Part shown: one piece after another, positions 3,339 to 38,939 of the stretch
Numbering within the stretch: the stretch's first letter is position 1
Layout of the letters: each line of letters starts with the position of its first letter
Source: Escherichia phage Snoke
Sequence record: MK931441.1
Length of the DNA stretch: 44,454 bases
Strand: one strand, 5' to 3'
Position numbers and translations under genes: made by a program
The notes under the pieces: generated by a model
Database searches by the model: none
The model's input: only the letters and a program-made list of their open reading frames with translations
Told to the model about the DNA's origin: nothing

Positions 3339-3348
3339 GTTCACATAT

Positions 3349-3370
3349 AGCCCCGAAAGGGGCTTTCTTA
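3349..3370 (+). terminator. stem-loop / weak intrinsic terminator after portal gene
   Basis: AGCCCC-GAAA-GGGGCT hairpin followed by TTCTTA. Confidence 0.4.
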
Positions 3371-3374
3371 TAGT

Positions 3375-5267
3375 ATGCTATTAACTTTAGCGCCACAGGG
3401 TTTATCTATGAGCTTACTTACATCTCTAATCAGCCACCAGATATGGCTGCAACGCACTGCATCCGGTGAGGTGAAAGACCTCGCGCCGTTCATTAAGGAG
3501 ATGCGGGACGAAATAAAACGGCAGGTGCTGTTATTCGGTGACGACGGGCGGAGCACTGCGCGACTGAATAAACTGTTACTCGACCTTGAAGAAGCGCTAA
3601 CCGGACTTACCGGCGATTGGCAAACAAAGCTGACAGAAGACCTTATGGAACTGGCGGCGTATGAGGCCGAGTGGAATGTAAAGACACTGACCACCAACGT
3701 AGATGCGGAATTTGTTACGCCTACTGCCGAACAGGTGTGGTCCGCTGCCGAGTTTCAACCCTTATCATTAAGCGACAAGCCTGTTGATTTCACTAAGCTG
3801 ATGTCGGGATGGGGTGAAACCGAAGTAGCACGTCTCGTAACCGGCGTTAAGATGGGCTTTGTTCAGGGTAAGACAACACGGCAGATTGTTAAGAATGTTG
3901 TTGGTGCTGGTGGTTTGGCGGACATTTCAGAACGTAACGCGGCTACTGTAATCCGCACCGCGCTGTCTCATGTATCCAACGAGGCCCGTAACGAGACGTA
4001 CCGCCAGAACGACGACATCATCGAGAAGTACGAGTGGGTGTCGACGCTGGACAGCCGTACCAGTACGATTTGTAGGGCCAGAGACGGAATGACGTGGGAA
4101 ATCGGTAAGGGGCCGATGCCCCCGGCCCATCCGAATTGTTTACTTGGGGACACTGTAGTATCTACCGGTAGTCCTGTTTCTAACATTTTTAAACGGGCGT
4201 ACAAAGGCACTGTAGTCTATGTCTCTACAAAGTCCGGTCGCACCTTGTCTATCACCCCAAACCACCAGGTATTGACTACCAGTGGTTGGGTTGCTTCCGG
4301 CCTTCTCAATGTAGGTGACAAGCTCGTGTGCGCTAAGGACTCTACTCTCTCTCTCAAGCATAAGGAACACAACGTTGTAGCCAAGTTCTCCGATTTGTTT
4401 AGTGCGGCTAATGTAGCGGTCAATCCTGCGGCGGTCCGTACAAGCCCAACCTCCACCGAAGACTTCCACGGCGACGGAACCGACGGCGAAGTCGAGATTG
4501 TACTTGTCGACCGCCTTTCCTGGGATAAAGTCAAGTCCGGACTGAATAAGCAAATCATTGACAAGGAACTCCCAGTGACTGCCGGCGTTGATGACTCCCT
4601 CCCTGGCTTTGGCTCTGCGAAGCAGTTCGGCATGGTCGGCCTTTCTCCCTCGGACAGCTTCGTGCGCGGCGGCAGAGAGAGCGAGGCGCTCCTCGGGAGT
4701 AGCTTTAGCCATTCTGATAAACATAGCGTCGCTACCTCCGCGAATGGTAACGCCGTTCTCTCTGAGAACGCGTATGACTGGACTACACGAAACGCCGATA
4801 ATCTTTCCGATTTCAACTGGTCCGATGCCGTTGGCGTAGAGCTTGATGATGTTGTCAATTTGGTCTTTAGTGAAGCTGATTTTTGCGGGCATGTTTATAA
4901 CCTCGAAAATGAACAGAACTGGTATCTTGCGAATGGAATTATAGCACATAACTGTCGCTCAACAACCGCGCCTGTAATCAGTTCGGAGTTCGACTTCCTC
5001 GATAAAGGCGCAAAACGCGCGGCTAAGGGCGCGGACGGCGGTATGCAGGTAAGCGCGGACACCACCTATTACGAGTTCCTGAAACAACAACCGGCATGGT
5101 TTCAGGACCAGGCGCTTGGTTCTGTTCGCGGTAAGATTTTCCGCAACAGCGGTATATCACCAGAGGAGTTTCGCGTAATATCTGTAGATGGTTTCGGGAA
5201 TCCGCTCACGCTTAAGCAGATGGCGGAACTCGATAAACGTGTTGCTGATTATCTGAAAGGGGATTAA
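3375..5267 (+). CDS. head morphogenesis protein precursor (Mu F / SPP1 gp7-like) containing an intein
   Basis: Extein carries the minor-head-protein signature DSRTSTICRARDG...PPAHPN-C-R; 630-aa precursor = about 358-aa extein plus 272-aa intein. Confidence 0.8.
   Translation: MLLTLAPQGLSMSLLTSLISHQIWLQRTASGEVKDLAPFIKEMRDEIKRQVLLFGDDGRSTARLNKLLLDLEEALTGLTGDWQTKLTEDLMELAAYEAEWNVKTLTTNVDAEFVTPTAEQVWSAAEFQPLSLSDKPVDFTKLMSGWGETEVARLVTGVKMGFVQGKTTRQIVKNVVGAGGLADISERNAATVIRTALSHVSNEARNETYRQNDDIIEKYEWVSTLDSRTSTICRARDGMTWEIGKGPMPPAHPNCLLGDTVVSTGSPVSNIFKRAYKGTVVYVSTKSGRTLSITPNHQVLTTSGWVASGLLNVGDKLVCAKDSTLSLKHKEHNVVAKFSDLFSAANVAVNPAAVRTSPTSTEDFHGDGTDGEVEIVLVDRLSWDKVKSGLNKQIIDKELPVTAGVDDSLPGFGSAKQFGMVGLSPSDSFVRGGRESEALLGSSFSHSDKHSVATSANGNAVLSENAYDWTTRNADNLSDFNWSDAVGVELDDVVNLVFSEADFCGHVYNLENEQNWYLANGIIAHNCRSTTAPVISSEFDFLDKGAKRAAKGADGGMQVSADTTYYEFLKQQPAWFQDQALGSVRGKIFRNSGISPEEFRVISVDGFGNPLTLKQMAELDKRVADYLKGD
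4137..4952 (+). mobile_element. intein (Hint domain), 272 aa
   Basis: Begins Cys1 CLLGDTVV (block A), SITPNHQVLT (block B, TxxH), ends VYNLENEQNWYLANGIIAHN (blocks F/G, terminal HN) followed by Cys+1 at 4953; splits conserved extein motif HPN|CR. Confidence 0.8.
4140..4892 (-). CDS. HTH + Vsr/DUF559-like PD-(D/E)XK endonuclease, candidate homing endonuclease encoded antisense to the intein
   Basis: Minus-strand ORF coextensive with the intein; ATG at 4892 preceded by GAGG with 8-nt spacer; N-terminal HTH (ISFTKDQIDNIIKLYANGIGPVEIGKIIGVSCSPVIRVLRENG) and nuclease signature SHWEFLVNDLL...YNLDFAVGSVAVEVFGGGW...RRRIDRYISRTKQIGELGYNVVF; ORF track gives upstream ATG at 4949 without SD. Confidence 0.6.
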   Translation of the reverse strand: MPAKISFTKDQIDNIIKLYANGIGPVEIGKIIGVSCSPVIRVLRENGVTIRGGSDAMFIRMAKATPEERLALSAAAHEAVRGRKADHAELLRRAKAREGVINAGSHWEFLVNDLLIQSGLDFIPGKAVDKYNLDFAVGSVAVEVFGGGWACTDRRRIDRYISRTKQIGELGYNVVFLMLERESRVLSAHELVTYIEKAGSNPTTGSQYLVVWGDRQGATGLCRDIDYSAFVRPFKNVRNRTTGRYYSVPK

Positions 5268-5730: not shown

Positions 5731-5760
5731 AAAGGCCCCATAATGGGGCCTTAGTTTTAT
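5731..5760. terminator. bidirectional intrinsic terminator
   Basis: AGGCCCCA-TAA-TGGGGCCT hairpin flanked by A-run upstream and T-run downstream, between convergent genes. Confidence 0.7.
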
Positions 5761-6278
5761 TTAAATCGCGCGGGCATTAACACCATAAAGGCCGTGTTTG
5801 AAAATTGTATTTTGCATCCTCTGGTTTGGTCCTGGAAATCGAAACGAGCAATTTCATTTTTGTATGCCTTAGAAATCTTGTACGCGTCTGCCAAATAGCG
5901 CAGAGTGAACCCTATACTACCGACAACACCCGGTGTGATGTGCGCCACGCGTCTCCAGTCAGGAAAGTTTCCTTCTACAACATCTACCGGAAGTGTACAT
6001 ATAAGCGCACGATTATCGTCATAGAAAGATACACTGCCGTTGTCGTGGTCTACCTCTGCGTAGTTAAATTTAGAAGGCTCTCTCCCTTTAATGTCGACGA
6101 GAACCCCTTTCTCAACGTTCGTCTTCACATTGTCGCAGAACAATCTATGACCGTCCGTAGACACTATCAATCCTTCAGGGTCTATGTAAAAAGCGTTCAA
6201 ATAGTAGCGAACATCATTTTTAGCCCTGCATATTTTCGCCCCTACATACGCAGGGAAAGTAATTACTGTAGTAACCAT
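5757..6278 (-). CDS. truncated DnaN-like protein (beta sliding clamp homolog, domain II plus partial domain III)
   Basis: 173 aa; DVRYYLNAF...STDGHRLFC, EGNFPDWRRV, IGFTLRYLADA and C-terminal FMVLMPARFK match, in order and spacing, E. coli DnaN motifs DVRYYLNG...ATDGHRLAVC, DGRFPDYRRV, IGFNVSYVLDVLNA and YVVMPMRL; strong SD AGGAGG 6 nt before ATG. Confidence 0.6.
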   Translation of the reverse strand: MVTTVITFPAYVGAKICRAKNDVRYYLNAFYIDPEGLIVSTDGHRLFCDNVKTNVEKGVLVDIKGREPSKFNYAEVDHDNGSVSFYDDNRALICTLPVDVVEGNFPDWRRVAHITPGVVGSIGFTLRYLADAYKISKAYKNEIARFDFQDQTRGCKIQFSNTAFMVLMPARFK

Positions 6279-6305
6279 TTTATGCCTCCTGTTTAAGTTA
6301 ACTGA

Positions 6306-6334
6306 ATAGTACCCTATTATATTGGTGCGCGCAA
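6306..6334 (-). promoter_or_regulatory. sigma70-type promoter (class II: TTGCGC-17-TACTAT) for DnaN-like gene
   Basis: Minus-strand TTGCGC, 17-bp spacer gcaccaatataataggg, TACTAT; spacer conserved with promoters at 15400, 37978, 38911. Confidence 0.55.
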
Positions 6335-11803: not shown

Positions 11804-12216
11804 TGGGCTACTTTGAAGACTTAACCAAAGCGTTCGACGTGCCGCTGGTAGCCTTCGGGGCCACCAACGGCATCAGGGTAGCGCTTGAGAACATCGACGC
11901 TCCGACGTCAACCGATACGCCATACCTTGCGAGTTACATGCTACTGGCGGATACCGAGCAGGCCGACTTATTTTTCACAGAGCAACGCGCCGGTGTTTAT
12001 CAGGTGGACATTAACTACGCATCGGTGAAAGGTAGCGCGCCAATCAATAAAATGGCAGACTTACTTAACACGGCGTTTAAAGCAGGTAAGTCTTTTTCAC
12101 GTAACGACATCTGCGCCGAAGTGCAATCGGTTAGCCTGGGGCCGCTGATTGTAGAAAATGGATGGGCTAAAAGACCATTGTCGATTAACTTTATTGCATT
12201 CACCAAGAGGCTGTGA
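11800..12216 (+). CDS. tail terminator-like protein (putative)
   Basis: Synteny immediately upstream of major tail protein. Confidence 0.35.
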   Translation: MMGYFEDLTKAFDVPLVAFGATNGIRVALENIDAPTSTDTPYLASYMLLADTEQADLFFTEQRAGVYQVDINYASVKGSAPINKMADLLNTAFKAGKSFSRNDICAEVQSVSLGPLIVENGWAKRPLSINFIAFTKRL

Positions 12217-13385
12217 ATATGGCTACAACTCCTTTTAAGGGCGCGAATACCGCGCAATTCTATGTGGCGGAAACTACCCCGGGCGTGACACCGACTTCCC
12301 CGGTATGGTCGCCGTTGCGTAATACTGGCGGCGTTCCCGCGATTACCCGCGACACTTTGACCTCCAACGAACTGGACGGCAGCCGCGAAACTACGTCAAT
12401 TCGCACTGGTAACAAACAGGTTAGCGGTGAATACGCCATCGAGCTTAGCTCTAAAAGTCAGGATGACTGGCTGGCAGGTGCTTTAGGCTCTACGTGGCAA
12501 TCAGGTGTATCCTTAACTGACCTGTCAATTACCGTCGCACCGGCAGGCAAGACGTTCACCCGTGCTGATGGTAGCTTTATTACCGACGGCGTTGAAGTAG
12601 GCGACCTGATTGCGTTTACCGACTTAACGGGAGATAACGCAAAACCGTTCATCGTCACTGCGGTAGAGGCACTGGTAGTGACCGGTGCGGGCATCCAGCA
12701 CACTCTCACCACAGAGACCGCTACTACTGCTGCTAAGACAGGCGACAAACTGGAAACCGGTAGCCAGTGTAAGACGTTCTCTATTCTCACATGGTACAAA
12801 GGCCAGTGCGGCGGGACTGACGCGTACACGCTTACCAAAGGTGTAGAAGTTTCTGGTTTCACTGTTGAGCAGGCCGTTAACGCGATGGTAACGGGCAGCT
12901 TCCCGTTCATCGGGCGCAGCCAGGAGATTCTCACCGAGCCGCCGTCTGGTTCTGATTTCTCCTCTGTTACGTTTGGTGATGAGCCGTTCTCCTCAGTTGA
13001 CGTTTCTGTGTTCGATGGCTCTACGCCGTTGCGTTGTGATAGCCTTACCATCACCAACGACAACAGCGCGTCCGCGCAGTTCGAACTCGGCAACACTAAC
13101 GTTGCGTTTGTGGAACGTAGCCGCGCGGCCAACACCTTCTCCATCTCCGGTAAGCTGTACGACATGGCGATGATTCAGAAGTTTATCAACGAACAGCAGG
13201 TAGAGATTAACTCTATTCTGGCGGGGGTAAACGGGGCTATGTCTTTCAGTCTGAAACGTGCAGAACTCACGGCGGTTACGCCAGAGATTGGTGGTCCTGA
13301 GTCAATCACTCAGAGCATAGAAGGACAGTCCACAGGCAATCAATATCAATCTTCTATTGTAATACAGCGCATTAGCTACGCGTAA
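12213..13385 (+). CDS. major tail protein (putative)
   Basis: 390-aa ORF upstream of chaperone/tape-measure genes, followed by strong terminator. Confidence 0.55.
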   Translation: MNMATTPFKGANTAQFYVAETTPGVTPTSPVWSPLRNTGGVPAITRDTLTSNELDGSRETTSIRTGNKQVSGEYAIELSSKSQDDWLAGALGSTWQSGVSLTDLSITVAPAGKTFTRADGSFITDGVEVGDLIAFTDLTGDNAKPFIVTAVEALVVTGAGIQHTLTTETATTAAKTGDKLETGSQCKTFSILTWYKGQCGGTDAYTLTKGVEVSGFTVEQAVNAMVTGSFPFIGRSQEILTEPPSGSDFSSVTFGDEPFSSVDVSVFDGSTPLRCDSLTITNDNSASAQFELGNTNVAFVERSRAANTFSISGKLYDMAMIQKFINEQQVEINSILAGVNGAMSFSLKRAELTAVTPEIGGPESITQSIEGQSTGNQYQSSIVIQRISYA

Positions 13386-13387
13386 GG

Positions 13388-13413
13388 AAAAGGCCCCTTT
13401 CGGGGCCTTTTCC
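13388..13413. terminator. bidirectional intrinsic terminator
   Basis: AAAA-AGGCCCC-TTTC-GGGGCCT-TTTT between convergent genes. Confidence 0.7.
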
Positions 13414-13587
13414 TTATTCCTTCAATTGCATTGGGTAGAAGTTAACGAGTTCTCCTTTATCCCGAAGCCGTGAATATTCATCTAACGCATCTTCCCGGCT
13501 ACTTACAGCATAGATATCATTCCACTCGTCCCATTCTTTGTCGTATACGCGGATTATGTATATTGTTTTCATTACATTCTTACTCAT
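13414..13587 (-). CDS. hypothetical protein (accessory island)
   Basis: Minus-strand ORF; internal ATG at 13587 has SD AGGAG 8 nt upstream; AT-rich. Confidence 0.35.
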   Translation of the reverse strand: MSKNVMKTIYIIRVYDKEWDEWNDIYAVSSREDALDEYSRLRDKGELVNFYPMQLKE

Positions 13588-13810
13588 CAATATTACTCCT
13601 GTACTCTCGTAACTTCTCCAGACTTTCAATTGCTTCCGCTAAGTCGGTTCCGGTGTCTTTGTGCCCGCGAAGGCCCATACACAATAGCTTCTTCAATGCG
13701 TGCTGTAGCGCCGGGTCGCGAATGTCGAAGGCACGCAGCACATCATAAACGTCTACTGTCATAGTGCTGCCGTGAGTGTTTGTCATTGTGCGGTTGTATT
13801 TATTTGTCAC
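13580..13810 (-). CDS. hypothetical protein (accessory island)
   Basis: Minus-strand ORF from track (GTG start); no motif recognised. Confidence 0.3.
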   Translation of the reverse strand: MTNKYNRTMTNTHGSTMTVDVYDVLRAFDIRDPALQHALKKLLCMGLRGHKDTGTDLAEAIESLEKLREYRSNIDE

Positions 13811-14000
13811 TGTTAACTCTCTTAAATCTGGCTATGCCTGACTCGTTAATGTTGCCTATTTCAAAGAAGCTGCGATATTTAGGCGAATACATTCTTACAT
13901 CGCCATTCTCTAGGGTGACCCCTTCATATACAGCACCTACTTCGAATCCATTTTTCTCCGCGTACGGACTCACATCGGTGCATTCATACATGTCTTTCAT
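13800..14000 (-). CDS. hypothetical protein (accessory island)
   Basis: Minus-strand ORF, coupled to upstream phosphoesterase gene. Confidence 0.3.
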   Translation of the reverse strand: MKDMYECTDVSPYAEKNGFEVGAVYEGVTLENGDVRMYSPKYRSFFEIGNINESGIARFKRVNSDK

Positions 14001-15127
14001 CCAAGCATCTCCGGTGAAATAGTTAAACGTGCGACCTCGCCATATTCGGCGCTATAAGTAATTACATTTGCACTACGACCTGACATCCATCCGCCGCGAG
14101 AGGCGTAGGCGTCTTTAGCCGCCAGGGTGCGGTGTTGCTCAACAACCATGTTACGGCTTTCTACAATCTTCTGATGGTGCAGGTGGCCTACATGGGCGTA
14201 GCTGTAAACACTCTCGCCGAACGCTTTGCGGAACTTGGCAATCATAACCGGTTCGATAGCGTCGAATCGTGCCTTATGCCCGTGGTGAAAGAACAGCGTC
14301 GTTTTGCCGTGTTGCACCATCTTGTAAACATCTGGCGACGTGTCGACGAACACCCGCGGCTCGTTGTCGTACAGCGTACTAAACATCTCAGCTAACCAAA
14401 TCATTCCGCTTTCGTCGTGGTTTCCTTGCACGATAAGCAAGCGAACATTTTTATGCTTAACCAGCGCCATACCGACAACACGGCGTACCATACGAATCAT
14501 GTAGCGGACCAGTTTCTGATAACGAGTGTCCGCATCAAGAACATGACCACTCGCTGGCGTAACCGCATCCAGACTATCGAAGTGCGCGAAGTCACCCAGC
14601 AGGTTAATAACCCCAGTTCCTGCATCTGGTGCTTTCTGAAACGCCGCATCGAACCATCGGGAGAACAGGTCTTCTGCAATCTTCATGTCCCAGTCGTCGC
14701 CGCTCTCGTCGGCCCAGGCCAGCATACCGAGATGGAAATCAGATACAGTGTAAAGATTAAGTAGTTTATCGTCACGTTTGGCGCGAACGGCTTTAACAGG
14801 CGCAACCGGCGTAATCTCTGACTTCATGCCCTCGATTACAGCTTTCATCAACTCGACCTGACGTTCAGCGTCAGTGTCTGTCTTAACCCATTGCAACTTA
14901 GTGTTGCCGAACTCGTCCACAAGCGACGACGTTCCTTTAATCTTGTAGCCGTCCGGGACAAGATGGCTAACGTCACGACCGTGACCTACGCCTTTCTTCG
15001 CCAGCTTCGCTTTACGGATACGAATAACTCGGTCTGAGATGCCGTATTTACGGGATATGTCGATAATCTTTGTTCCGGCGTTCAATTCTTCCTGTAACTG
15101 TTCGTCGGTTATTTTAATCCGGGCCAT
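13997..15127 (-). CDS. HTH domain + calcineurin-like metallophosphoesterase
   Basis: Phosphoesterase motifs in order: SDFHLG, GDFAHFD, GNHDE, HHGH, GHLHH; N-terminal HTH (ITDEQLQEELNAGTKIIDISRKYGISDRVIRIRKAK); SD GAGGAAG upstream. Confidence 0.7.
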   Translation of the reverse strand: MARIKITDEQLQEELNAGTKIIDISRKYGISDRVIRIRKAKLAKKGVGHGRDVSHLVPDGYKIKGTSSLVDEFGNTKLQWVKTDTDAERQVELMKAVIEGMKSEITPVAPVKAVRAKRDDKLLNLYTVSDFHLGMLAWADESGDDWDMKIAEDLFSRWFDAAFQKAPDAGTGVINLLGDFAHFDSLDAVTPASGHVLDADTRYQKLVRYMIRMVRRVVGMALVKHKNVRLLIVQGNHDESGMIWLAEMFSTLYDNEPRVFVDTSPDVYKMVQHGKTTLFFHHGHKARFDAIEPVMIAKFRKAFGESVYSYAHVGHLHHQKIVESRNMVVEQHRTLAAKDAYASRGGWMSGRSANVITYSAEYGEVARLTISPEMLG

Positions 15128-15166
15128 GCTTTACTTCCTCGTGTTTAGGATTTGTCCTATACTAGC

Positions 15167-15358
15167 TCACTTCTCTTTGACATTCGAGTTGCAAGCCCAG
15201 ATTAAAATAAATACCCACGGCAGCAGAACCCAGCCAAGAAACAGATTGGCCATGAATATCGCTAATTTCGCTTTATGACCCCGCATATGGGCCACTAAAA
15301 ACGGGATAAAATAAACTAAAACGATAATGATTAAGAAGAACATAGTAATACCTGTCAT
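15167..15358 (-). CDS. small membrane protein, superinfection-immunity-like
   Basis: 63 aa from internal ATG with SD AGGAG; two hydrophobic segments and motif AHMRGHKAKLAIFMANLFLGWVLLPWVFILIWA; ORF track start at 15496 would include the promoter. Confidence 0.5.
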   Translation of the reverse strand: MTGITMFFLIIIVLVYFIPFLVAHMRGHKAKLAIFMANLFLGWVLLPWVFILIWACNSNVKEK

Positions 15359-15399
15359 GGTGTAGCTCCTGTTCGAGTTAACATTGTTGGTGTAAGTGA

Positions 15400-15428
15400 A
15401 TAGTATCCTATTATGTTGGGGTGCGCAA
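15400..15428 (-). promoter_or_regulatory. sigma70-type promoter (class II) for minus-strand accessory island
   Basis: Minus-strand TTGCGC-17-TACTAT with spacer accccaacataatagga, identical to spacer at 37984-38000. Confidence 0.55.
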
Positions 15429-15536
15429 GTAATGTGATAGAATAATTTTGCGCCTAGTGTCGCACACGAAAAGCGGGTGGTTCCCGTCTGGCGCATTTAC
15501 CATTAACCTGTAACCTCTTAACCAAAGGATTAAAGA

Positions 15537-15953
15537 ATGAAACTTTCTGATTTTTATTACGAAGCTGAGGCAGAAAAAGGCGCCCGTATGCCGATACCAC
15601 TGAAAGACGGCACCGATTCAGGGGAGTGGCTGAACGTTGTTTCACCGGAGGCAGACGTTGCTGTTAAAGCTATGAGGGCGTTTACACTTGCGTACCGCGC
15701 GGCATTAGGTAAATTGAAACCGCTTCGCGATAAATGCGAGGAACTGAAAGATTTCTCGGAATACAACATCAAGATGGAAGACGCCGCAACGGACCTTAAC
15801 CGCCAGTTAGCGCTTGAACTGGTTAACGGTTGGAGTCTCGACGATGAATTTAATAAAGAGAACCTGAATACTCTTTTCTCACAATATAAACGACTCGCTG
15901 AACACGTTGTTGTTTTCCACAATGAACAGCTTCACCAATTGCAGGAAAAGTAG
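15537..15953 (+). CDS. tail assembly chaperone (G-like)
   Basis: 138-aa acidic protein immediately upstream of tape measure gene; followed by overlapping -1 frame ORF. Confidence 0.65.
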   Translation: MKLSDFYYEAEAEKGARMPIPLKDGTDSGEWLNVVSPEADVAVKAMRAFTLAYRAALGKLKPLRDKCEELKDFSEYNIKMEDAATDLNRQLALELVNGWSLDDEFNKENLNTLFSQYKRLAEHVVVFHNEQLHQLQEK

Positions 15954-16318
15954 ACGCGTTGCTCCAGTTTGCCCGTTGGAACTTCATAACCCGCCACAAA
16001 CGGCGGGAGTTTGACAGTATCGCCGACGGGCATAAAGCCGCGCTAATTGCTATGGGGGTTATGCAAGACGCGCCGGAAGCAACGCAGGACACAGGGCCGG
16101 AATGCCCCCCTGAGCTATTAACCACCTTCGAGAAGTACAGGGAAATCAAATTCACCCGCCGAGTGGACGATGATGGCATCAAGATGTACCCGCGCGAACA
16201 GTTAAGATGGTCGGATTTAGTGGCATACAGCACCGTTTCAGGCCAGAATATAGGCATGTTCGAATCTGACATCATCATGAGCTTAGACGCTATTTTCGAG
16301 GGTAGAAACGATGGCTGA
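15926..16318 (+). CDS. tail assembly chaperone extension reached by -1 frameshift (GT-like product)
   Basis: -1 frame open from 15926; candidate slip site GGAAAAG (15944-15950) immediately before the G stop codon TAG. Confidence 0.4.
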   Translation, partial: TASPIAGKVDALLQFARWNFITRHKRREFDSIADGHKAALIAMGVMQDAPEATQDTGPECPPELLTTFEKYREIKFTRRVDDDGIKMYPREQLRWSDLVAYSTVSGQNIGMFESDIIMSLDAIFEGRNDG

Positions 16319-18647
16319 TGTAGCTAGTTTAGTTGTAAAGGTATCAGAGCAAGGCGCGAAAGCTACATCGGACCGTCTTGATAATCTCTCCAAGTCGGCA
16401 AAAGTAGCGGGGGCAGCCGTAGCCGGACTCGCTTCAATCGTCGCCGCGACAGCGTACAAGGCCGCACAGGAACTGGTAGACTCCCAACGGCAACTGGACA
16501 AGATGTCCGCCAGCCTGAAAACGCTAACCGGAAGCACGCAGGGGGCAAGACAGGCGTTAAGCATCCTGCAAGACTTCGCGCGCGACACTCCGTATGGCCT
16601 TGAACAGGCGGTAGAGGGATTCCGTAAACTGGTGGCTCTCGGCCTTACCCCCTCAGAAGAAGCGTTGCGCTCCTATGGCAACACTGCCGCTGCTATGGGT
16701 AAAGACCTTAATCAGATGATTGAGGCCGTTGCGGACGCCAGTACATTTGAATTTGAGCGCCTTAAAGAATTCGGCATCAAGGCCAAGCAGAACAAAAACG
16801 ATGTTGAATTTACATTCCAGGGCACCACTACGGTAGTTAAGAAGAGCGCTGCCGACATCGAGCAATACCTGCTCAACATTGGTAACGTAAACTTCGCGGG
16901 GGCTATGGCGGACCAGGCCAACACACTTAACGGCGCCATCGCCAGTGCCAGCGACTCATGGTCGCAGTTAAAAATGACACTGGCTACCAGCCTTGATGTT
17001 GGTGCTCTTGCGGAGCCTATCCGGTACATCGATGATTTAATCCAGGAACTTAACGCACAGGTAGCATCCGGCGAACTCGCTGCTGAGATGCGTATGTGGG
17101 GCGACATCGCGTCAGAAGTGGGAAGCGCGATAGCGATGTCGTTCGACGCGGCATTTGGTTTCGTAGGCGACGCAATAAACGGGCTGAATGAACTTTGGGA
17201 CTTTAGCAGTAAAAGTATCACCGATAGCGGTGAACAAACGGCGACAACCATCGCGGAATCAGCCGCCGATGCGCTCGATTTCATTGCGGAAGAATTTACC
17301 GCGATGGAGCGATTCTTTGAAGATATGGTTAAAGGGGCACAGGACGCTGGCCGGTTGGTGAAAGCTGCCTTCACACCAGGGGAATCTGTAGACGTAGCAA
17401 AAAACATTAACTTCCAGTTAGGGATGGCACTGGATACTCAGCGCGATGTTGCGGACCTGACCCGTAAAAGTTTCCGCGAACAGGTGGAGGCTCAGCAAAA
17501 TATTGTCGCGCTTAAACGCGCGGCATATGACATCGACAAAGAAGCCGCTAAGGGAGAAGGTCTTAGTAAATTTAAGGTAACTGGTACTGGTGGCGGATCC
17601 GAAGATGATAGCGCAGGTGCAAAAGCCGCTAAGAAAGCCGCAGATGCGTTCGAGCGCCAGAAGAAAGCCGCTGAGGATTTCTACTACCAGTCGATTCATC
17701 TCAATGATGACGTATTCCAGAAAATAGAAGCCAACCAGGAACAGCAGCTAACCAAGCTACAGGAGTTTTACGGCAATCAGCTTCTTAGCGACCAGCAATA
17801 CGAGAACGCTAAAACTCAGATTATGCTGGAGGCGGACACTGCACGTCAGGAAGAACTCGCCAAGCGAGAGAAAGAACGGCAGGAAAAGAACCAGAAAGGC
17901 GAGGACTTCATGGCTCAGATTATGGGTCAGAATGCCGCAGAGCTTGAGCTTTTGGAGATTCAGGAACAACAAAAACTTGACGTTGCAGACCGATATCGCG
18001 AACAGAACCTTATTAACGAGGAGCAGTACCAGGCTGCGGTTAATGCTATAAACGACCAGTATGCTTTGAAACGTGCCAACGCTACCGGTAACGCTTTCGG
18101 AATGATGGCGGATAACATGAAGGCCTCACTAGGGGAGGCGTCTGCCGCATACAAAGCGTTTGCCATTGCGCAGGCCACCATCGCCACATACACATCCGCC
18201 ATCGAGGCTTATAAATCTGCATCGGCTATCCCTATTGTTGGATGGGTGCTCGGGCCTGTAGCAGCAGCTACAGCGGTAGCGGCAGGTCTCGCTAACATCA
18301 GCAAGATTCGTTCGGCCCGTGAGCAGGGCGGTAACTTAGCCGCAGGTCAGTTATCTACTATCGCGGAACGTAACAAGCCAGAAGTTATTATGCCTGCAGG
18401 GGCGTCACGCGTACGTACCGCGGAACAGATGCGCCAGATTATGGGCGAGAACGGCAACAAGTCAGGCGGTGACAGCGTGACAATCGTCAACAACACCACC
18501 GGACGAGTTGATTCCGCCGTTACAGAGCGTGACGACGAAGGGCGGTTACGTGTTATCATCAGTGAAACAGTATCGGCGGCGTTACAAGACAGCAACAGTG
18601 CAATCTCCAAGTCCCGCCGGGCTACACGAAACCAGCCGGGGTATTAA
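16311..18647 (+). CDS. tail tape measure protein
   Basis: 778 aa, long helical A/E/K/Q-rich protein after chaperone pair. Confidence 0.85.
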   Translation: MADVASLVVKVSEQGAKATSDRLDNLSKSAKVAGAAVAGLASIVAATAYKAAQELVDSQRQLDKMSASLKTLTGSTQGARQALSILQDFARDTPYGLEQAVEGFRKLVALGLTPSEEALRSYGNTAAAMGKDLNQMIEAVADASTFEFERLKEFGIKAKQNKNDVEFTFQGTTTVVKKSAADIEQYLLNIGNVNFAGAMADQANTLNGAIASASDSWSQLKMTLATSLDVGALAEPIRYIDDLIQELNAQVASGELAAEMRMWGDIASEVGSAIAMSFDAAFGFVGDAINGLNELWDFSSKSITDSGEQTATTIAESAADALDFIAEEFTAMERFFEDMVKGAQDAGRLVKAAFTPGESVDVAKNINFQLGMALDTQRDVADLTRKSFREQVEAQQNIVALKRAAYDIDKEAAKGEGLSKFKVTGTGGGSEDDSAGAKAAKKAADAFERQKKAAEDFYYQSIHLNDDVFQKIEANQEQQLTKLQEFYGNQLLSDQQYENAKTQIMLEADTARQEELAKREKERQEKNQKGEDFMAQIMGQNAAELELLEIQEQQKLDVADRYREQNLINEEQYQAAVNAINDQYALKRANATGNAFGMMADNMKASLGEASAAYKAFAIAQATIATYTSAIEAYKSASAIPIVGWVLGPVAAATAVAAGLANISKIRSAREQGGNLAAGQLSTIAERNKPEVIMPAGASRVRTAEQMRQIMGENGNKSGGDSVTIVNNTTGRVDSAVTERDDEGRLRVIISETVSAALQDSNSAISKSRRATRNQPGY

Positions 18648-34094: not shown

Positions 34095-34123
34095 ACTATA
34101 ATAGCGAACTATTCACTTGTCAA
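34095..34123 (-). promoter_or_regulatory. sigma70 promoter (class I: TTGACA-17-TATAGT) with embedded inverted repeat
   Basis: Minus-strand TTGACA, spacer agtgaatagttcgctat, TATAGT; AATAG-CGAA-CTATT at 34100-34113. Confidence 0.6.
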
Positions 34124-34187
34124 TGGGCTTTTCTAAAATAATTAATATGGTACTATTCACGCATCAACTAACTAAGGAGTAACTGAC

Positions 34188-34731: not shown

Positions 34732-36989
34732 TCCAAATCCTCTTCTGTCACTATCAGCATCTCATTCGGCTCGTATATTGTCTTCGGAATCTTGTTATCG
34801 TTTATGCCCCACGGCAGCCGATATTGCTTAGGTATAGGCCTGTTGTTATTATCCAGCCCAGAGACGATAACCCCAGCCTCGTGCATCTCCTCCAGTTTCT
34901 TTCGAAGGTCGTTATTAGCGTTAATCGGTACACCATAACTATCTTCTTTCGCCGCTTTGACGATAGCGGACATAGAAAACCCTCGCTTGTCGTCGCCCTG
35001 CTCCTGCAATTTACCTAATGCGTAAATAACCGTAGCTTCTTTGGTACCCAGTTTCTCGAACTGGCCTACCTTTTCTTTAACGGCTTCCTTCTGTTCGTCG
35101 GTCATACCTTCTACTTTCTTCACGAAGACAGAGAAGGCGTTAAAGTTAACAAAGACATCGATGTGCGGATTTCCCGCGTCAAAATCTCGCACATCGTCAC
35201 TGCTATACCCTTCCGGAAGCACCATGAAGTTGTGAGTTGGTTCTTTCTTTTCCGGTGGCTCCGCTATCTGAATCTTCTGTATTACGAATCCTCTGGCTTT
35301 CTGCCGTTCTCCGTTTCGGTTCTTTATGTGATACAGGTTTATCTCTAAGTTATTGTCGTTGTCTGGTTTATGCAGGAACATCCCGTTATCGATGGAGTTG
35401 TGAAAGTCGCTCCCACCCTTCGGCATCATGCCGTTTTCAGACGGTACGGTTTCGTCGATGTTTTTAGTCGGGTGCACCATAGCGCCTACCGCAGCGTTAA
35501 GCGTCGACGCTATTTCGTTAAGCGCCTGCGCCGCTTCTTTCATCGACCTGTTGTCGTTCTCGTCGAAGCCTGGTATGCAAGTTTGTAGGGTATCAAACGT
35601 AACCTTTACAATTTTCTCTTCACCGGCGACACGGCGCATCATTCTTACCGCCTGGCGGCGCCATGCTTCATCAAGTAAATTACACCCATCGGCAACACAA
35701 TCGATAATGTGCAAGCGGTCCAGGCTATCCCCGAGGGCAATCTGCAAAGACTTTTTATGTCGCCCGAACGACTGTGCGCCTTCACCGGCGAAAATGAACG
35801 CATGTCCTTCTGCAACCTCTGCCCCACCGAACGCATATCTTTTTTCGGCGGCAATAGCGGCGTCAATCGCCATACTAAATGTCGACTTACCAGTGTGGGA
35901 CTTTGCGCAAATGTAAAACGATTCGTTAGTCTGCATAAGGCCGTCTACGACGGAGTAAGCAGGTTCTTTTTCAACTTCCGGCTCGTCTTCGAGGTCTTCC
36001 AGAGTGCAAGTTACAGGCTCTTCATTCTCTGTGCGGTGTAATTCCTCAATCTCTTCGTCCGGTAAATCAGGCAGAGCCGCACGAATGCTGTTAATACTGA
36101 TAGGTTGCTTGTCTACGTTAAGCTCGTCCGGAAGACCGCACATACGCAGAGCCAAATGTTGTCGGCGGTTAAGCTCGGTGCAAGCGCCGTTGTTTGTGTG
36201 CTGGCACACGAAGCGCACTTCTTTACCATCAAGCATAATGCTGGTAGAGCCTTTGCCGGTGTGCAGGTGTTCGTTAGGGCAAGGCACTTCGTACCCGCGA
36301 CCGGAAGATAAAGCGTCAAGGCCAAGCTCCGCTTCGCAGAAATGCGCTATATCCGCGTTAAGCCCATGCTCATCGGCAGCAAGGGTCTTAGCTTCACGTT
36401 TACGCAACCCCATTTCTTCGGCTTTCTTGATGTACCGCTCGGCACGGATAACACGCCCTTCTGTAACCGTTATCTTCGACTCTTTATGCGGCAGGTAGAT
36501 AAGGCGGTTGCCATCTTCTGTGCAGTGGTCACGCAGCGCTTCGTCTATCTCTAACTCTGCACAAATGGCGCGTTGTACCATCCACGCATCGTTAGAGTTA
36601 AACGGCGTGCGTGCAGGTACAAGAACGCGAAAGGCGTAATCCCCGTTTTTACACGCGTGCTGATGCGACGCCGTTGTGTGCAGAATGTTGAAGAACGGCG
36701 CGTTCTTGAATTTGCGCGTCAGGTCGCGGTACTGAGCGCGGTTGAGATGGTCAAAGTCGAACTTAACCACACTGTCTTCCAGAATCGCGTTCTTACGGCG
36801 ACCGCCAACCGGCGCAATAGCTTTCTGCTTAATCTTGGCCGCGTCGTACTCTTCCTTAGTCCATGACGGGTCTACGGACAGACGCTTCGATGTATCGCAG
36901 ACATACTCTACAAACTGCTCCAGTGGCATTTCACGGGCTACCGGGTTTTTATCGAATGTGTTACGCAGCGTTGCAAAAACAATATTCAT
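34728..36989 (-). CDS. DNA primase / helicase (putative)
   Basis: Central P-loop AKSHTGKST; N-terminal region with Cys/His cluster CPNEHLHTGKGSTS...CQHTNNGAC; position in replication module. Confidence 0.6.
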   Translation of the reverse strand: MNIVFATLRNTFDKNPVAREMPLEQFVEYVCDTSKRLSVDPSWTKEEYDAAKIKQKAIAPVGGRRKNAILEDSVVKFDFDHLNRAQYRDLTRKFKNAPFFNILHTTASHQHACKNGDYAFRVLVPARTPFNSNDAWMVQRAICAELEIDEALRDHCTEDGNRLIYLPHKESKITVTEGRVIRAERYIKKAEEMGLRKREAKTLAADEHGLNADIAHFCEAELGLDALSSGRGYEVPCPNEHLHTGKGSTSIMLDGKEVRFVCQHTNNGACTELNRRQHLALRMCGLPDELNVDKQPISINSIRAALPDLPDEEIEELHRTENEEPVTCTLEDLEDEPEVEKEPAYSVVDGLMQTNESFYICAKSHTGKSTFSMAIDAAIAAEKRYAFGGAEVAEGHAFIFAGEGAQSFGRHKKSLQIALGDSLDRLHIIDCVADGCNLLDEAWRRQAVRMMRRVAGEEKIVKVTFDTLQTCIPGFDENDNRSMKEAAQALNEIASTLNAAVGAMVHPTKNIDETVPSENGMMPKGGSDFHNSIDNGMFLHKPDNDNNLEINLYHIKNRNGERQKARGFVIQKIQIAEPPEKKEPTHNFMVLPEGYSSDDVRDFDAGNPHIDVFVNFNAFSVFVKKVEGMTDEQKEAVKEKVGQFEKLGTKEATVIYALGKLQEQGDDKRGFSMSAIVKAAKEDSYGVPINANNDLRKKLEEMHEAGVIVSGLDNNNRPIPKQYRLPWGINDNKIPKTIYEPNEMLIVTEEDLE

Positions 36990-37977: not shown

Positions 37978-38006
37978 TTGCACACCCCAACATAATAGGA
38001 TACTAT
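37978..38006 (+). promoter_or_regulatory. sigma70-type promoter (class II: TTGCAC-17-TACTAT)
   Basis: Spacer accccaacataatagga; AATAG-GATA-CTATT at 37994-38007. Confidence 0.55.
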
Positions 38007-38910: not shown

Positions 38911-38939
38911 TTGCACGCTGGGGAAGAATAGGATACTAT
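38911..38939 (+). promoter_or_regulatory. sigma70-type promoter (class II: TTGCAC-17-TACTAT)
   Basis: Spacer gctggggaagaatagga; AATAG-GATA-CTATT at 38927-38940. Confidence 0.55.

What the first reader, a model, noticed from the sequence alone, without database searches (positions are those of the whole stretch)
13388..15428. Reverse-oriented five-gene accessory island between major tail and tail chaperone genes
Seen: five minus-strand ORFs (three small hypotheticals, the HTH-metallophosphoesterase and a small membrane protein) lie between a bidirectional terminator (13388-13413) and their own class II promoter (15400-15428). They interrupt an otherwise co-linear plus-strand structural operon, and the small ORFs are noticeably AT-rich. 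Inference: a moron-type insertion expressed independently of late genes, likely early, consistent with host-takeover or exclusion functions.
Basis: partly seen in the sequence, partly recalled or inferred. Interest (0 to 1): 0.5.

Follow-up and report, generated by a model that had tools for sequence, protein, structure and literature searches.

The report
Backward-facing gene cassette in phage tail operon
This is a real but already annotated five-gene backward-facing cassette in the tail genes of a Kagunavirus coliphage. The slot itself is old and widely conserved, so it is not a recent insertion, and only three of its small genes are true add-ons.

Summary
Five minus-strand genes (13414-15358) lie between a strong two-way terminator hairpin (13383-16) and the promoter at 15400-15428. 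All five are under purifying selection.

The window is 99.6% identical to Escherichia phage Schulenburg (Kagunavirus), where all five genes are already annotated.

The "recent moron" reading is only partly right.
- The slot (terminator, reversed genes, TTGC-type promoter) sits between the tail tube and chaperone genes in Kagunavirus, Jerseyvirus, Serratia phage Otaku and Shewanella phage 3/49.
- Cargo ranges from one to five genes. The promoter-proximal gene is always a small envelope protein; here it is a T4 Imm-family protein.
- The HTH-metallophosphoesterase has genome-typical GC and matches 2040 phage records. Elsewhere it lies among replication or lysis genes.
- Only Imm, orf66 and orf57 are AT-rich and patchy.

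The promoter belongs to a repeated promoter/operator class. Other copies precede the cro-like gene, the small-gene arrays and a second reversed cassette. This suggests host-polymerase expression independent of the tail genes, but timing is unproven.

Side finding: a covarying, subthreshold int-alpA-like RNA element precedes the chaperone gene.

Verdict: ordinary, low to moderate interest.

The parts
12213..13385 (+). Tail tube gene; the left flank of the slot.
   Evidence: PF18906 Phage_tube_2, E 6.5e-39. Annotated as tail tube protein in Schulenburg.
13383..13416 (.). Two-way intrinsic terminator hairpin, TAAGGAAAAGGCCCC-TTTC-GGGGCCTTTTCCTTA. It overlaps the tail tube stop codon and the orf57 stop codon.
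   Evidence: 16-bp stem, -28.7 and -29.5 kcal/mol, z -6.0 and -5.4. The AAGGCCCC-N4-GGGGCCTT core is conserved after the tail tube stop in all but one relative examined, whatever the cargo.
13414..13587 (-). orf57: small hypothetical protein, AT-rich accessory gene restricted to the genus.
   Evidence: AGGAG ribosome-binding site, GC 0.385. Found in 22 phage records, all from Escherichia/Shigella phages or labelled Kagunavirus, at 50-100% identity. dN/dS 0.18-0.32. No Pfam, PHROG, NCBIfam or PADLOC match.
13580..13810 (-). orf76: widely conserved small phage protein of unknown function.
   Evidence: Found in 773 phage records over many genera, at 92% identity in Jerseyvirus. phrog_2452, E 8.6e-37, aligned to the C-terminal 70 residues of a 235-position profile. 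dN/dS 0.02-0.08. A stand-alone small gene in early or nin-like regions in Sf12 and Shewanella phage 3/49.
13800..14000 (-). orf66: small hypothetical protein, AT-rich accessory gene restricted to the genus.
   Evidence: Found in 25 records, all from Escherichia phages or labelled Kagunavirus, at 92-100% identity. GC 0.413. dN/dS 0-0.07. No family match.
13997..15127 (-). HTH-metallophosphoesterase (376 aa). It has an N-terminal three-helix DNA-binding-type domain, a beta-hairpin linker and a binuclear metallophosphoesterase core.
15167..15358 (-). Imm-family superinfection-exclusion protein (63 aa, two hydrophobic segments). It is the promoter-proximal gene.
   Evidence: PF14373 Imm_superinfect, E 9e-14, 51.5 bits against a cut-off of 27.9. 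phrog_1039. The AGGAG site 7 nt upstream and the 63-aa start are conserved in relatives. GC 0.395.
15400..15428 (-). Island promoter TTGCGC-17-TACTAT. The -10 region overlaps a palindrome, AATAG-GATA-CTATT (15399-15412).
   Evidence: TTGC and TAnTAT are invariant with fixed spacing across Kagunavirus, Jerseyvirus and more distant loci. The motif is repeated in the window. It is the reverse complement of the 7-copy PHIRE motif reported for fBC-Eco01 (PMC9825357). No transcription start has been mapped.
15416..15443 (+). Candidate divergent promoter for the chaperone and tape-measure genes: TTGGGG-16-TGaTAGAAT (extended -10).
   Evidence: Read from the sequence. The TGnTAGAAT element is conserved in the Kagunavirus loci and in L043 and L075, and looser in Jerseyvirus (read on the opposite strand). 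This is inference only.
15447..15511 (+). Conserved three-helix RNA element resembling Rfam int-alpA, 26 nt upstream of the chaperone start codon.
   Evidence: RF02996, 32.5 bits (gathering score 35.8). It is the only Rfam match in the whole window at E 0.0054. In covariation counts, 94% of cells pair, 5 pairs change on both sides, and 0 of 500 shuffles reach the observed score.
15537..16318 (+). Two tail assembly chaperone ORFs; the right flank. They are followed by the tape measure gene at 16311-18647.
   Evidence: PF08748 and PF23812; annotation.
6306..6334 (-). Second copy of the same promoter motif. It drives another reversed gene (5757-6278) inside the structural module.
   Evidence: A two-way terminator is annotated in Schulenburg at the gene's 3' end.
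37978..38006 (+). Third copy of the promoter motif, ahead of an array of small plus-strand genes.
38911..38939 (+). Fourth copy of the promoter motif, ahead of a second array of small plus-strand genes.

Best explanation
The region is an old, self-contained, backward-facing cargo slot built into the tail operon of Guernseyvirinae-type siphoviruses. It is not a recent insertion.

Its fixed frame has two parts. One is a two-way intrinsic terminator directly after the tail tube gene. The other is a host sigma-70-type promoter (TTGCRC-17-TAnTAT) next to the tail chaperone gene. In this phage the -10 region carries a palindrome (AATAG-N4-CTATT) that recurs at the phage's other non-structural promoters.

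Host RNA polymerase most likely reads one polycistronic message from this promoter, independently of the surrounding structural genes and under the same control as the cro-like gene and the small-gene arrays (inferred).

The first product is a small two-segment inner-membrane protein of the T4 Imm family. It most likely blocks DNA entry by superinfecting phages (inferred from family membership).

The second product is an active binuclear metallophosphoesterase tethered to a DNA-binding-type domain. In other phage lineages this gene sits with a polynucleotide kinase/phosphatase, a dNMP kinase and nucleases. It is therefore most likely a DNA-end or DNA-degrading phosphodiesterase serving nucleotide supply, repair or host-DNA attack (inferred).

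The three small distal genes are interchangeable cargo of unknown function. Relatives carry PNK plus dNMP kinase, HNH endonucleases, an anti-repressor or nothing in the same position.
For: Shown:
- Gene order, gene overlaps and purifying selection.
- Terminator strength and conservation.
- Promoter positions invariant across divergent relatives.
- The motif is repeated in the window: 5 matches of the loose pattern against 0.35 expected, 7 matches of the core against 0.14 expected. Four full copies lie upstream of the two reversed cassettes and the two small-gene arrays; weaker core-only copies precede the cro-like gene. The same motif was reported as a 7-copy element in fBC-Eco01 (PMC9825357).
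- The slot has the same position and orientation in all 46 IMG/VR loci where a chaperone gene is recognisable, with at least eight cargo variants.
- The slot persists with one gene in Serratia phage Otaku and two genes in Shewanella phage 3/49. Both keep the terminator and a TTGCAC-17 promoter, and both have a signal-peptide or transmembrane protein first.
- Imm passes Pfam's cut-off.
- In some Kagunaviruses the Imm position is taken by a 108-aa signal-peptide protein (phrog_14165), which is also the sole cargo in Otaku.
- The MPE catalytic motifs are invariant and the fold is confirmed.
- MPE neighbours are PNK and dNMP kinase in Webervirus Sushi and in Kagunavirus variant C, and an exonuclease, endonuclease VII and PNK in Bonnellvirus Lidtsur.
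- In Kagunavirus K1B4 the Imm gene is transcribed, and its profile groups with the DNA polymerase and methylases, not with capsid or tail genes (PMC12645636).
- A mycobacteriophage MPE expressed early damages host DNA and counters defence (PMC12287305). This is a functional precedent, not a tested homologue.
Against: - No transcription start or time course exists for this phage.
- The K1B4 study calls the Imm gene "late" (peak after 100 min). Its infection was asynchronous, with phage reads at most 8.9% of the total.
- Pfam scores for the MPE are below the curated cut-offs.
- The HTH assignment for the window protein rests on the model and on Pfam hits to 40%-identical homologues.
- Nothing is known about orf57, orf66 and orf76.
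- The loci surveyed were retrieved through MPE homology, so they cannot show how often MPE is missing. Otaku shows that it can be.
Confidence: 0.6

Rival explanations
1. One reading: the whole five-gene block is a recently acquired moron, expressed early for host takeover or exclusion.
For: It has its own promoter and terminator. Imm, orf66 and orf57 are AT-rich. orf66 and orf57 are restricted to 25 and 22 records. The Imm family is filed by PHROGs as moron/host takeover.
Against: The slot and its frame are conserved out to Otaku and Shewanella phage 3/49. MPE and orf76 have genome-typical GC and are found in 2040 and 773 phage records. No relative examined has the tail tube and chaperone genes adjacent.
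Confidence: 0.1
2. The metallophosphoesterase is an anti-defence enzyme that destroys nucleotide second messengers (cyclic oligonucleotides or cyclic mononucleotides) made by host immune systems. On this view the cassette is a counter-defence unit.
Confidence: 0.15
3. The cassette is expressed late together with the tail genes and serves virion assembly or lysis timing.
For: It lies inside the tail operon. The K1B4 study calls the Imm gene late. In Dhillonvirus and Drexlerviridae the MPE gene lies next to lysis genes.
Against: The cassette is on the opposite strand, behind a terminator, and uses the promoter motif of the non-structural genes. In K1B4 the gene groups with the DNA polymerase, not with capsid or tail genes. 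No product has a structural-protein signature.
Confidence: 0.1
4. The HTH-metallophosphoesterase is mainly a transcription regulator. It binds the promoter palindrome, and the enzyme domain acts as a sensor.
For: It has a sigma70 region 4-like N-terminal domain. A conserved palindrome overlaps the -10 region of the promoter class.
Against: All catalytic residues are invariant, which argues for catalysis. The protein is conserved in phages that lack this promoter motif. Otaku keeps only one copy of the palindrome genome-wide and has no MPE. A separate cro-like HTH gene preceded by two motif copies is the simpler candidate regulator.
Confidence: 0.05

Closest known systems
Escherichia phage Schulenburg (MK931438) genes 022-026, and the same block in other Kagunavirus and Jerseyvirus records
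   Same: 99.6% DNA identity over 5 kb. The same five genes are annotated in the same order, including "phosphoesterase" and "superinfection immunity protein".
   Different: Schulenburg annotates a 109-aa Imm start. The conserved 63-aa start with an AGGAG site is more likely. The records annotate the genes, but neither genome paper read here describes the block as a unit.
Morons in siphovirus tail operons, such as HK97 gp15, a superinfection-exclusion membrane protein (recalled from the literature, not tested here)
   Same: A small inner-membrane exclusion-type gene with its own promoter and terminator sits among tail genes. The accessory genes have atypical base composition.
   Different: This unit is reversed and multi-gene, and it is conserved across a subfamily. 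It carries a DNA-metabolism enzyme. The phage is virulent, so there is no lysogen to benefit.
T4 Imm (Pfam PF14373)
   Same: The Pfam match is above the curated cut-off. The protein is small with two hydrophobic segments.
   Different: 63 aa, and found in a siphovirus. The target of exclusion is unknown. Relatives replace it with a 108-aa secreted protein.
The MPE-PNK-dNMP kinase cassette of Drexlerviridae (for example Klebsiella phage Sushi gp37-39)
   Same: The HTH-MPE is homologous (42% identity). The same three-gene order occurs in Kagunavirus variant C.
   Different: In Sushi the cassette is co-oriented with the replication genes and precedes the lysis genes. In the window, PNK and the dNMP kinase are replaced by three small ORFs.
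Mre11/SbcD and the PolD DP1 exonucleases
   Different: There is no C-terminal capping domain and no Rad50/SbcC-type partner in the genome. The protein has an N-terminal HTH instead. Small phosphodiesterases match equally well.
Mycobacteriophage A10ZJ24 gp48 metallophosphoesterase (PMC12287305)
   Same: A phage MPE reported as early-expressed, which damages host DNA and counters defence. This is a working model for the enzyme here.
   Different: Homology beyond the superfamily was not tested. No HTH fusion is reported in the text searched.
Rfam int-alpA RNA (RF02996)
   Same: The same three-helix layout and the conserved strings GCGCCUAG, CGAAAAGCGGG and CUGGCGC. The match covers the full length of the model.
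   Different: The score is 32.5 bits, below the gathering score of 35.8. No relative reaches the gathering score. The element lies before a tail chaperone gene, not near integrase or alpA genes, and it lacks the long U tail of the consensus.

Membership tests
Moron (independent transcription unit inserted in a phage operon) | Own promoter | tested here: inconclusive
   A conserved sigma-70-like motif lies at 15400-15428, repeated in the window and invariant in relatives. No transcription start has been mapped.
Moron (independent transcription unit inserted in a phage operon) | Own terminator | tested here: met
   16-bp hairpin, z -6.0 and -5.4, conserved.
Moron (independent transcription unit inserted in a phage operon) | Base composition unlike the genome | tested here: inconclusive
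   Met for orf57 (0.385), orf66 (0.413) and Imm (0.395). Not met for MPE (0.508) or orf76 (0.481). The genome is 0.502.
Moron (independent transcription unit inserted in a phage operon) | Present in some and absent from other, otherwise collinear relatives | tested here: not met
   Not met for the unit as a whole: the slot is present in all 46 related loci and in two outgroups. Individual genes (Imm, orf66, orf57, and MPE in Otaku) do come and go.
T4 Imm superinfection immunity family (PF14373) | Profile match above the curated cut-off | tested here: met
   51.5 bits against a cut-off of 27.9, E 9e-14, covering profile positions 1-42 of 42.
T4 Imm superinfection immunity family (PF14373) | Small protein with membrane-spanning segments | tested here: met
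   63 aa with two hydrophobic stretches (about residues 5-23 and 31-54), read directly from the sequence. No topology predictor was run.
T4 Imm superinfection immunity family (PF14373) | Blocks DNA entry of superinfecting phage | not testable with these tools
   Needs plating and DNA-entry assays.
Calcineurin-like metallophosphoesterase superfamily | Five metal-binding motifs (DxH, GDxxD/H, GNHD/E, H, GHxH) | tested here: met
   D130/H132, G178-D179, N236-H237-D238, H282-G283-H284 and G314-H315-x-H317 are invariant in 15 homologues.
Calcineurin-like metallophosphoesterase superfamily | Beta-sandwich phosphoesterase fold | tested here: met
Calcineurin-like metallophosphoesterase superfamily | Pfam gathering score | tested here: not met
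   Metallophos_2 scores 21.9 against 27. Metallophos scores 18.5 against 21.5. The protein is a divergent clade.
Mre11/SbcD DNA repair nucleases | Capping domain after the phosphoesterase core | tested here: not met
   The model ends with the core at residue 376. The extra domains are N-terminal.
Mre11/SbcD DNA repair nucleases | Rad50/SbcC-type ATPase partner encoded alongside | tested here: not met
   None is found among the large ORFs of the window or in the Schulenburg annotation.
Mre11/SbcD DNA repair nucleases | Nuclease activity on DNA | not testable with these tools
   Needs biochemistry.
Rfam int-alpA RNA (RF02996) | Covariance-model score at or above the gathering score | tested here: not met
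   32.5 bits against 35.8. Relatives also fall below.
Rfam int-alpA RNA (RF02996) | Three-helix structure supported by compensatory changes | tested here: met
   94.4% of cells pair, 5 of 14 pairs change on both sides, 0 of 500 shuffles reach the score, and slid controls pair at 34-46%.
Rfam int-alpA RNA (RF02996) | Location near integrase or alpA genes (as I recall the family description) | tested here: not met
   The element lies between the island promoter and a tail chaperone gene.

The most novel reading that the evidence does not exclude
The divergent region between the cassette and the chaperone gene may be a coupled control-and-exclusion module.

(1) The promoter-proximal envelope protein (one of two Imm types, or the 108-aa secreted protein) would be matched to the tape-measure and chaperone type it is inherited with. 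It would exclude phages that use that DNA-entry type.

(2) The int-alpA-like structured leader, which starts at the predicted start of a conserved extended -10 promoter, would act as a terminator or attenuator. A phage factor would have to override it to switch on the distal tail genes, as with lambda Q at tR'. That would assign a function to the orphan int-alpA motif.
Probability: 0.15. Interest if true: 0.55.

Novelty: already known. Interest (0 to 1): 0.25.

Why it matters
For the scan, this finding can be closed as ordinary. The block is annotated in dozens of GenBank records, and its kind, an independently transcribed accessory cassette with an exclusion gene inside a tail operon, is familiar.

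Four points are modestly useful.
- The slot is an ancient, fixed "docking site" whose cargo turns over, from one gene to five. It is therefore a natural place to look for exclusion and anti-defence genes in Guernseyvirinae used for phage therapy.
- The HTH-metallophosphoesterase matches 2040 phage records, is labelled "DNA repair exonuclease" without evidence, and remains uncharacterised.
- The promoter/operator class ties the cassette to the phage's non-structural regulon.
- An int-alpA-like RNA in a defined position, as the leader of the tail chaperone operon, offers a testable context for a motif with no known function.

Tried and rejected
- Pfam, NCBIfam and PADLOC gave nothing for orf57, orf66 or orf76, even at E up to 10 in Pfam; PHROGs matched only orf76.
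- I tested whether orf76 is a remnant of the dNMP kinase found at that position in relatives. BLASTP showed no similarity (E 3.4). It is a stand-alone small gene in other phages.
- Sequence and profile searches of the MPE against PDB sequences found no phosphoesterase match. Only weak HTH hits appeared.
- Two of the three large protein searches returned only homologues of 84% identity or more. A third search, with a marine homologue, was needed to build a usable alignment.
- A single-sequence AF2 model of orf76 was too poor to search with (pLDDT 65, pTM 0.34).
- I first read the conserved hairpin plus T-run as a minus-strand terminator upstream of the island promoter. I dropped this when the string CGAAAAG proved to be part of the int-alpA consensus on the plus strand. 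Two U-G wobbles still favour the minus strand, so the strand is not fully settled.
- Linkage of the Imm type with the chaperone and tape-measure type was considered as evidence for co-adaptation. It is not claimed, because adjacency alone explains it: there are 175 bp of conserved spacer on one side and 1.1 kb of conserved MPE on the other as recombination substrates.
- The promoter/terminator scanner missed both the terminator and the TTGC promoter because of its rules.
- No tRNA genes were found, and no Rfam family reached its gathering score.
- Literature searches for Jerseyvirus or Guernseyvirinae transcriptomes and for the HTH-MPE family found nothing usable beyond the K1B4 study.
Full report
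**What the window is.** A 5-kb stretch around the finding is 99.6% identical to Escherichia phage Schulenburg (MK931438), a Kagunavirus of the subfamily Guernseyvirinae. It matches 478 phage records in all, mostly Salmonella Jerseyviruses and Escherichia Kagunaviruses. In Schulenburg the five genes are already annotated: three hypothetical proteins, a "phosphoesterase" and a "superinfection immunity protein".

**Checking the observation.**
- The five minus-strand ORFs are real.
  - orf57: 13414-13587
  - orf76: 13580-13810
  - orf66: 13800-14000
  - HTH-metallophosphoesterase (MPE, 376 aa): 13997-15127
  - membrane protein: 15167-15358
- Adjacent genes overlap by 4-11 nt.
- The membrane protein most likely starts at the ATG at 15358, giving 63 aa with an AGGAG site 7 nt upstream. 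Relatives annotate this start and it is conserved. The 109-aa start annotated in Schulenburg is less likely.
- All five ORFs show purifying selection against homologues in related loci. dN/dS is 0.01-0.05 for MPE, 0.02-0.08 for orf76, 0-0.07 for orf66, 0-0.23 for Imm and 0.18-0.32 for orf57.
- The flanks are a tail tube gene (PF18906) and two tail assembly chaperone ORFs (PF08748, PF23812), followed by the tape measure gene.
- The terminator is a perfect 16-bp stem at 13383-13416. It folds at -28.7 kcal/mol on the plus strand and -29.5 on the minus strand, with z-scores of -6.0 and -5.4. U-rich 3' arms are present in both directions.
- Its core, AAGGCCCC-N4-GGGGCCTT, follows the tail tube stop codon in all but one of the relatives examined that retain the tail tube 3' end, whatever cargo follows. 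The exception is L013, where an HNH gene lies between the tube gene and the slot.
- AT-richness is real but selective. GC is 0.385 for orf57, 0.413 for orf66 and 0.395 for Imm, against 0.508 for MPE, 0.481 for orf76 and 0.502 for the genome.

**The promoter.**
- I aligned the spacer between the cassette and the chaperone gene from 24 loci: Kagunavirus, Jerseyvirus and more distant forms. TTGC, TAnTAT and their spacing are invariant, although the first gene downstream differs.
- The loose pattern TTGC-N19-TAnTAT occurs 5 times in the window against 0.35 expected. One of these, at 34824, does not resemble the others and is probably chance.
- The full 29-mer occurs 3 times against 0.00 expected. 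The core ATAATAGGRTACTAT, with up to two mismatches, occurs 7 times against 0.14 expected.
- The other full copies lie upstream of three units:
  - a second reversed gene inside the structural module (promoter 6306-6334, gene 5757-6278);
  - two arrays of small plus-strand genes (promoters at 37978 and 38911).
- Two weaker core-only copies lie upstream of the cro-like gene (34098, 34142).
- The motif contains a palindrome, AATAG-N4-CTATT, overlapping the -10 region. In two divergent loci it becomes AATAC-N4-GTATT, a change on both arms. This suggests an operator for a dimeric regulator.
- The paper on Kagunavirus fBC-Eco01 reports seven copies of tgAATAGTa-ccTATTat-T found with PHIRE, which is the reverse complement of this motif. 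The authors attribute it to a phage RNA polymerase (PMC9825357). No RNA polymerase gene is annotated in Schulenburg.
Sharing it with the cro-like gene and the small-gene arrays is the main argument that the cassette belongs to the non-structural regulon. That argument is an inference.

**Is it a recent insertion?** No.
- I retrieved 72 IMG/VR loci through the MPE protein and mapped the neighbours.
- In all 46 loci where a chaperone gene is recognisable, the MPE lies next to it in the opposite orientation. Where the contig extends far enough, the tail tube gene lies on the other side.
- The position next to the promoter holds one of two Imm types, or instead a 108-aa protein with a signal peptide (phrog_14165).
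- The distal position holds one of the following:
  - orf66-orf76, with or without orf57
  - orf76 alone
  - orf76-orf57
  - a polynucleotide kinase/phosphatase plus a dNMP kinase, with or without orf57
  - an HNH endonuclease plus orf76
  - orf76 plus an anti-repressor
  - nothing
- These loci were found through the MPE, so I also started from the tail tube protein.
  - Serratia phage Otaku (Guernseyvirinae, tube 70% identical) has a single reversed gene in the slot. It is a 108-aa signal-peptide protein of phrog_14165. The genome has no MPE anywhere.
  - Shewanella phage 3/49 (tube 63% identical) has two reversed genes and no MPE in the slot. The first encodes a 60-aa protein with a transmembrane segment.
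  - Both keep the hairpin terminator after the tube gene and a TTGCAC-17-CATTAT or TTGCAC-17-TATTGT promoter.
- The frame is therefore old. The first gene is always a small envelope protein, and the rest is cargo that turns over.

**How widespread each gene is** (of 50,697 phage records):

| Gene | Records |
|---|---|
| MPE | 2040 |
| orf76 | 773 |
| Imm | 379 |
| orf66 | 25 |
| orf57 | 22 |

The three rarest genes are the three AT-rich ones.

**The membrane protein.** It matches Pfam Imm_superinfect (PF14373) above the curated cut-off (51.5 bits against 27.9) and phrog_1039. It has two hydrophobic segments. From what is established for T4 Imm (my knowledge of the literature), the family blocks DNA entry by superinfecting phages. 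That activity is inferred here, not shown.

**The metallophosphoesterase.**
- It matches phrog_704 ("DNA repair exonuclease") at E 3.8e-164. It matches the Pfam Metallophos families only below their cut-offs.
- In an alignment of 15 homologues down to 40% identity, the residues of all five metallophosphoesterase motifs are invariant.
- An AlphaFold2 model built on a 48-sequence alignment has pLDDT 71 and pTM 0.69. It shows three N-terminal helices, a beta-hairpin region and the phosphoesterase core.
- Marine homologues carry precomputed Pfam hits to sigma-70 region 4 in the N-terminal part.
  - The best Foldseek E-values go to Rv0805 and Mre11.
- The protein has no capping domain, and no Rad50/SbcC-like partner is encoded in the window. 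Filing it as an Mre11/SbcD repair nuclease is therefore not justified.
- Gene context in other lineages points to DNA or nucleotide metabolism.

| Phage (lineage) | Genes around the MPE |
|---|---|
| Klebsiella phage Sushi (Webervirus) | helicase, VRR-NUC, methylase, MPE, PNK, dNMP kinase, then lysis genes |
| tonnikala (Warwickvirus) | similar, without PNK or the kinase |
| Lidtsur (Bonnellvirus) | exonuclease, endonuclease VII, MPE, PNK |
| JLBYU60 (Dhillonvirus) | lysis genes upstream; in the matching IMG/VR locus L049, terminase-sized ORFs follow (76% identity to the window protein) |

- A mycobacteriophage MPE, A10ZJ24 gp48, is reported as early-expressed, damaging to host DNA and needed to overcome host defence (PMC12287305). 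This is a precedent for function, not a tested homologue.
- My best reading is a DNA-directed phosphodiesterase. A second-messenger phosphodiesterase is a live rival.

**Expression data.**
- The only transcriptome I found for the genus is for phage vB_Eco_K1B4 (PMC12645636). Its cassette has an Imm gene, the MPE and three further reversed ORFs whose lengths match PNK, the dNMP kinase and orf57.
- The authors place the Imm gene in a class peaking after 100 min, together with DNA methylases and the DNA polymerase. Capsid and tail genes peak earlier, in their "middle" class.
- The latent period was 30 min and phage reads never exceeded 8.9%. The culture was therefore asynchronous and the class names cannot be taken at face value.
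- The data do show that the gene is transcribed. They also show that it behaves like the replication genes rather than like its structural neighbours.

**Side finding: a structured element before the chaperone gene.**
- The spacer contains a conserved three-helix element.
- On 14 distinct sequences, 94.4% of cells form standard pairs, against 84% in shuffles. Five of 14 pairs change on both sides, no shuffle of 500 reaches the covariation score, and slid controls pair at 34-46%.
- Rfam matches the same bases (15447-15511, plus strand) to int-alpA (RF02996) over the full model. The score is 32.5 bits, below the gathering score of 35.8. It is the only hit in the whole window at E 0.0054. No relative reaches the gathering score.
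- A conserved extended -10 element, TGaTAGAAT (15435-15443, plus strand), lies back to back with the island promoter. It would start transcription about where the element begins, which would make the element the leader of the chaperone and tape-measure transcript.
- Two U-G pairs fit the minus strand better, so the strand is not fully settled.

**Mosaicism.**
- The type of the first cassette gene goes with the type of the chaperone and tape-measure genes. There are three types at roughly 50% identity.
- The MPE (93-99% identical) and the tail tube (89-97%) on the other side do not follow these types. Two loci, L028 and L063, are exceptions.
- The cassette thus spans a recombination boundary between Imm and the MPE.
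- Co-adaptation of an exclusion protein with a DNA-entry type is attractive. Simple adjacency explains the pattern as well, so I do not claim it.

**Verdict.** The feature is ordinary and already annotated. The enzyme's substrate, the timing of expression and the function of the small ORFs remain open.

Noticed in passing
window 5757-6334: A second reversed cassette lies inside the structural module. It is a 173-aa gene (annotated "DNA polymerase III sliding clamp" in Schulenburg; no Pfam match here) driven by the same promoter motif at 6306-6334. Schulenburg annotates a two-way terminator at its 3' end.
   Followed up: partly
window 15447-15511 (+): A conserved three-helix element lies before the tail chaperone gene. 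It matches Rfam int-alpA over the full model at 32.5 bits (gathering score 35.8) and shows compensatory changes among relatives. A conserved extended -10 element (15435-15443) would start transcription at its 5' end.
   Followed up: partly
window 34098-34156 (+), 15399-15412, 6306-6320, 37992-38006, 38925-38939: The repeated promoter motif carries a palindrome, AATAG-N4-CTATT, over the -10 region. Two tandem copies precede the cro-like gene, which suggests autoregulation by a dimeric repressor. The fBC-Eco01 paper attributes the motif to a phage RNA polymerase, although no RNA polymerase gene is annotated in the close relative Schulenburg.
   Followed up: partly
window 3340-3398 (-): A weaker copy of the -10 motif (TTAATAGCATACTAT) is followed at once by a GC-rich hairpin (AAAGCCCCTTTCGGGGCT) on the minus strand. 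This could be a very short antisense unit or chance.
   Followed up: no
window 15537-18647; loci L009-L075: The tail chaperone and tape-measure genes occur as three types at about 50% protein identity in genomes that are otherwise 90% or more identical around them. The type of the first cassette gene (two Imm types or a 108-aa secreted protein) follows them, with two exceptions (L028, L063).
   Followed up: partly
window 15167-15496 (-): Schulenburg and fPoEco01 annotate a 109-aa Imm ORF that starts inside the conserved promoter region. The 63-aa start at 15358, with an AGGAG site, is conserved and is used in other records. The long form is probably a mis-set start.
   Followed up: yes
L049, L081 (Dhillonvirus) compared with window 13997-15127: The MPE protein is about 76% identical between Kagunavirus and Dhillonvirus, yet in Dhillonvirus it lies after the lysis genes and just upstream of what appear to be the terminase genes. 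This points to exchange of the gene between genera or to its relocation.
   Followed up: partly
window 13398-13401; loci: The 4-nt loop of the terminator hairpin appears in both orientations among relatives (TTTC or GAAA, sometimes GTTT or GGAA) while the stem stays fixed.
   Followed up: no
L002 1994-2626 (+), L005 4671-5171, L013, L029, L036, L062, L065: HNH homing-endonuclease genes have entered the slot repeatedly, at different positions and on either strand, in Kagunavirus and Jerseyvirus relatives.
   Followed up: partly
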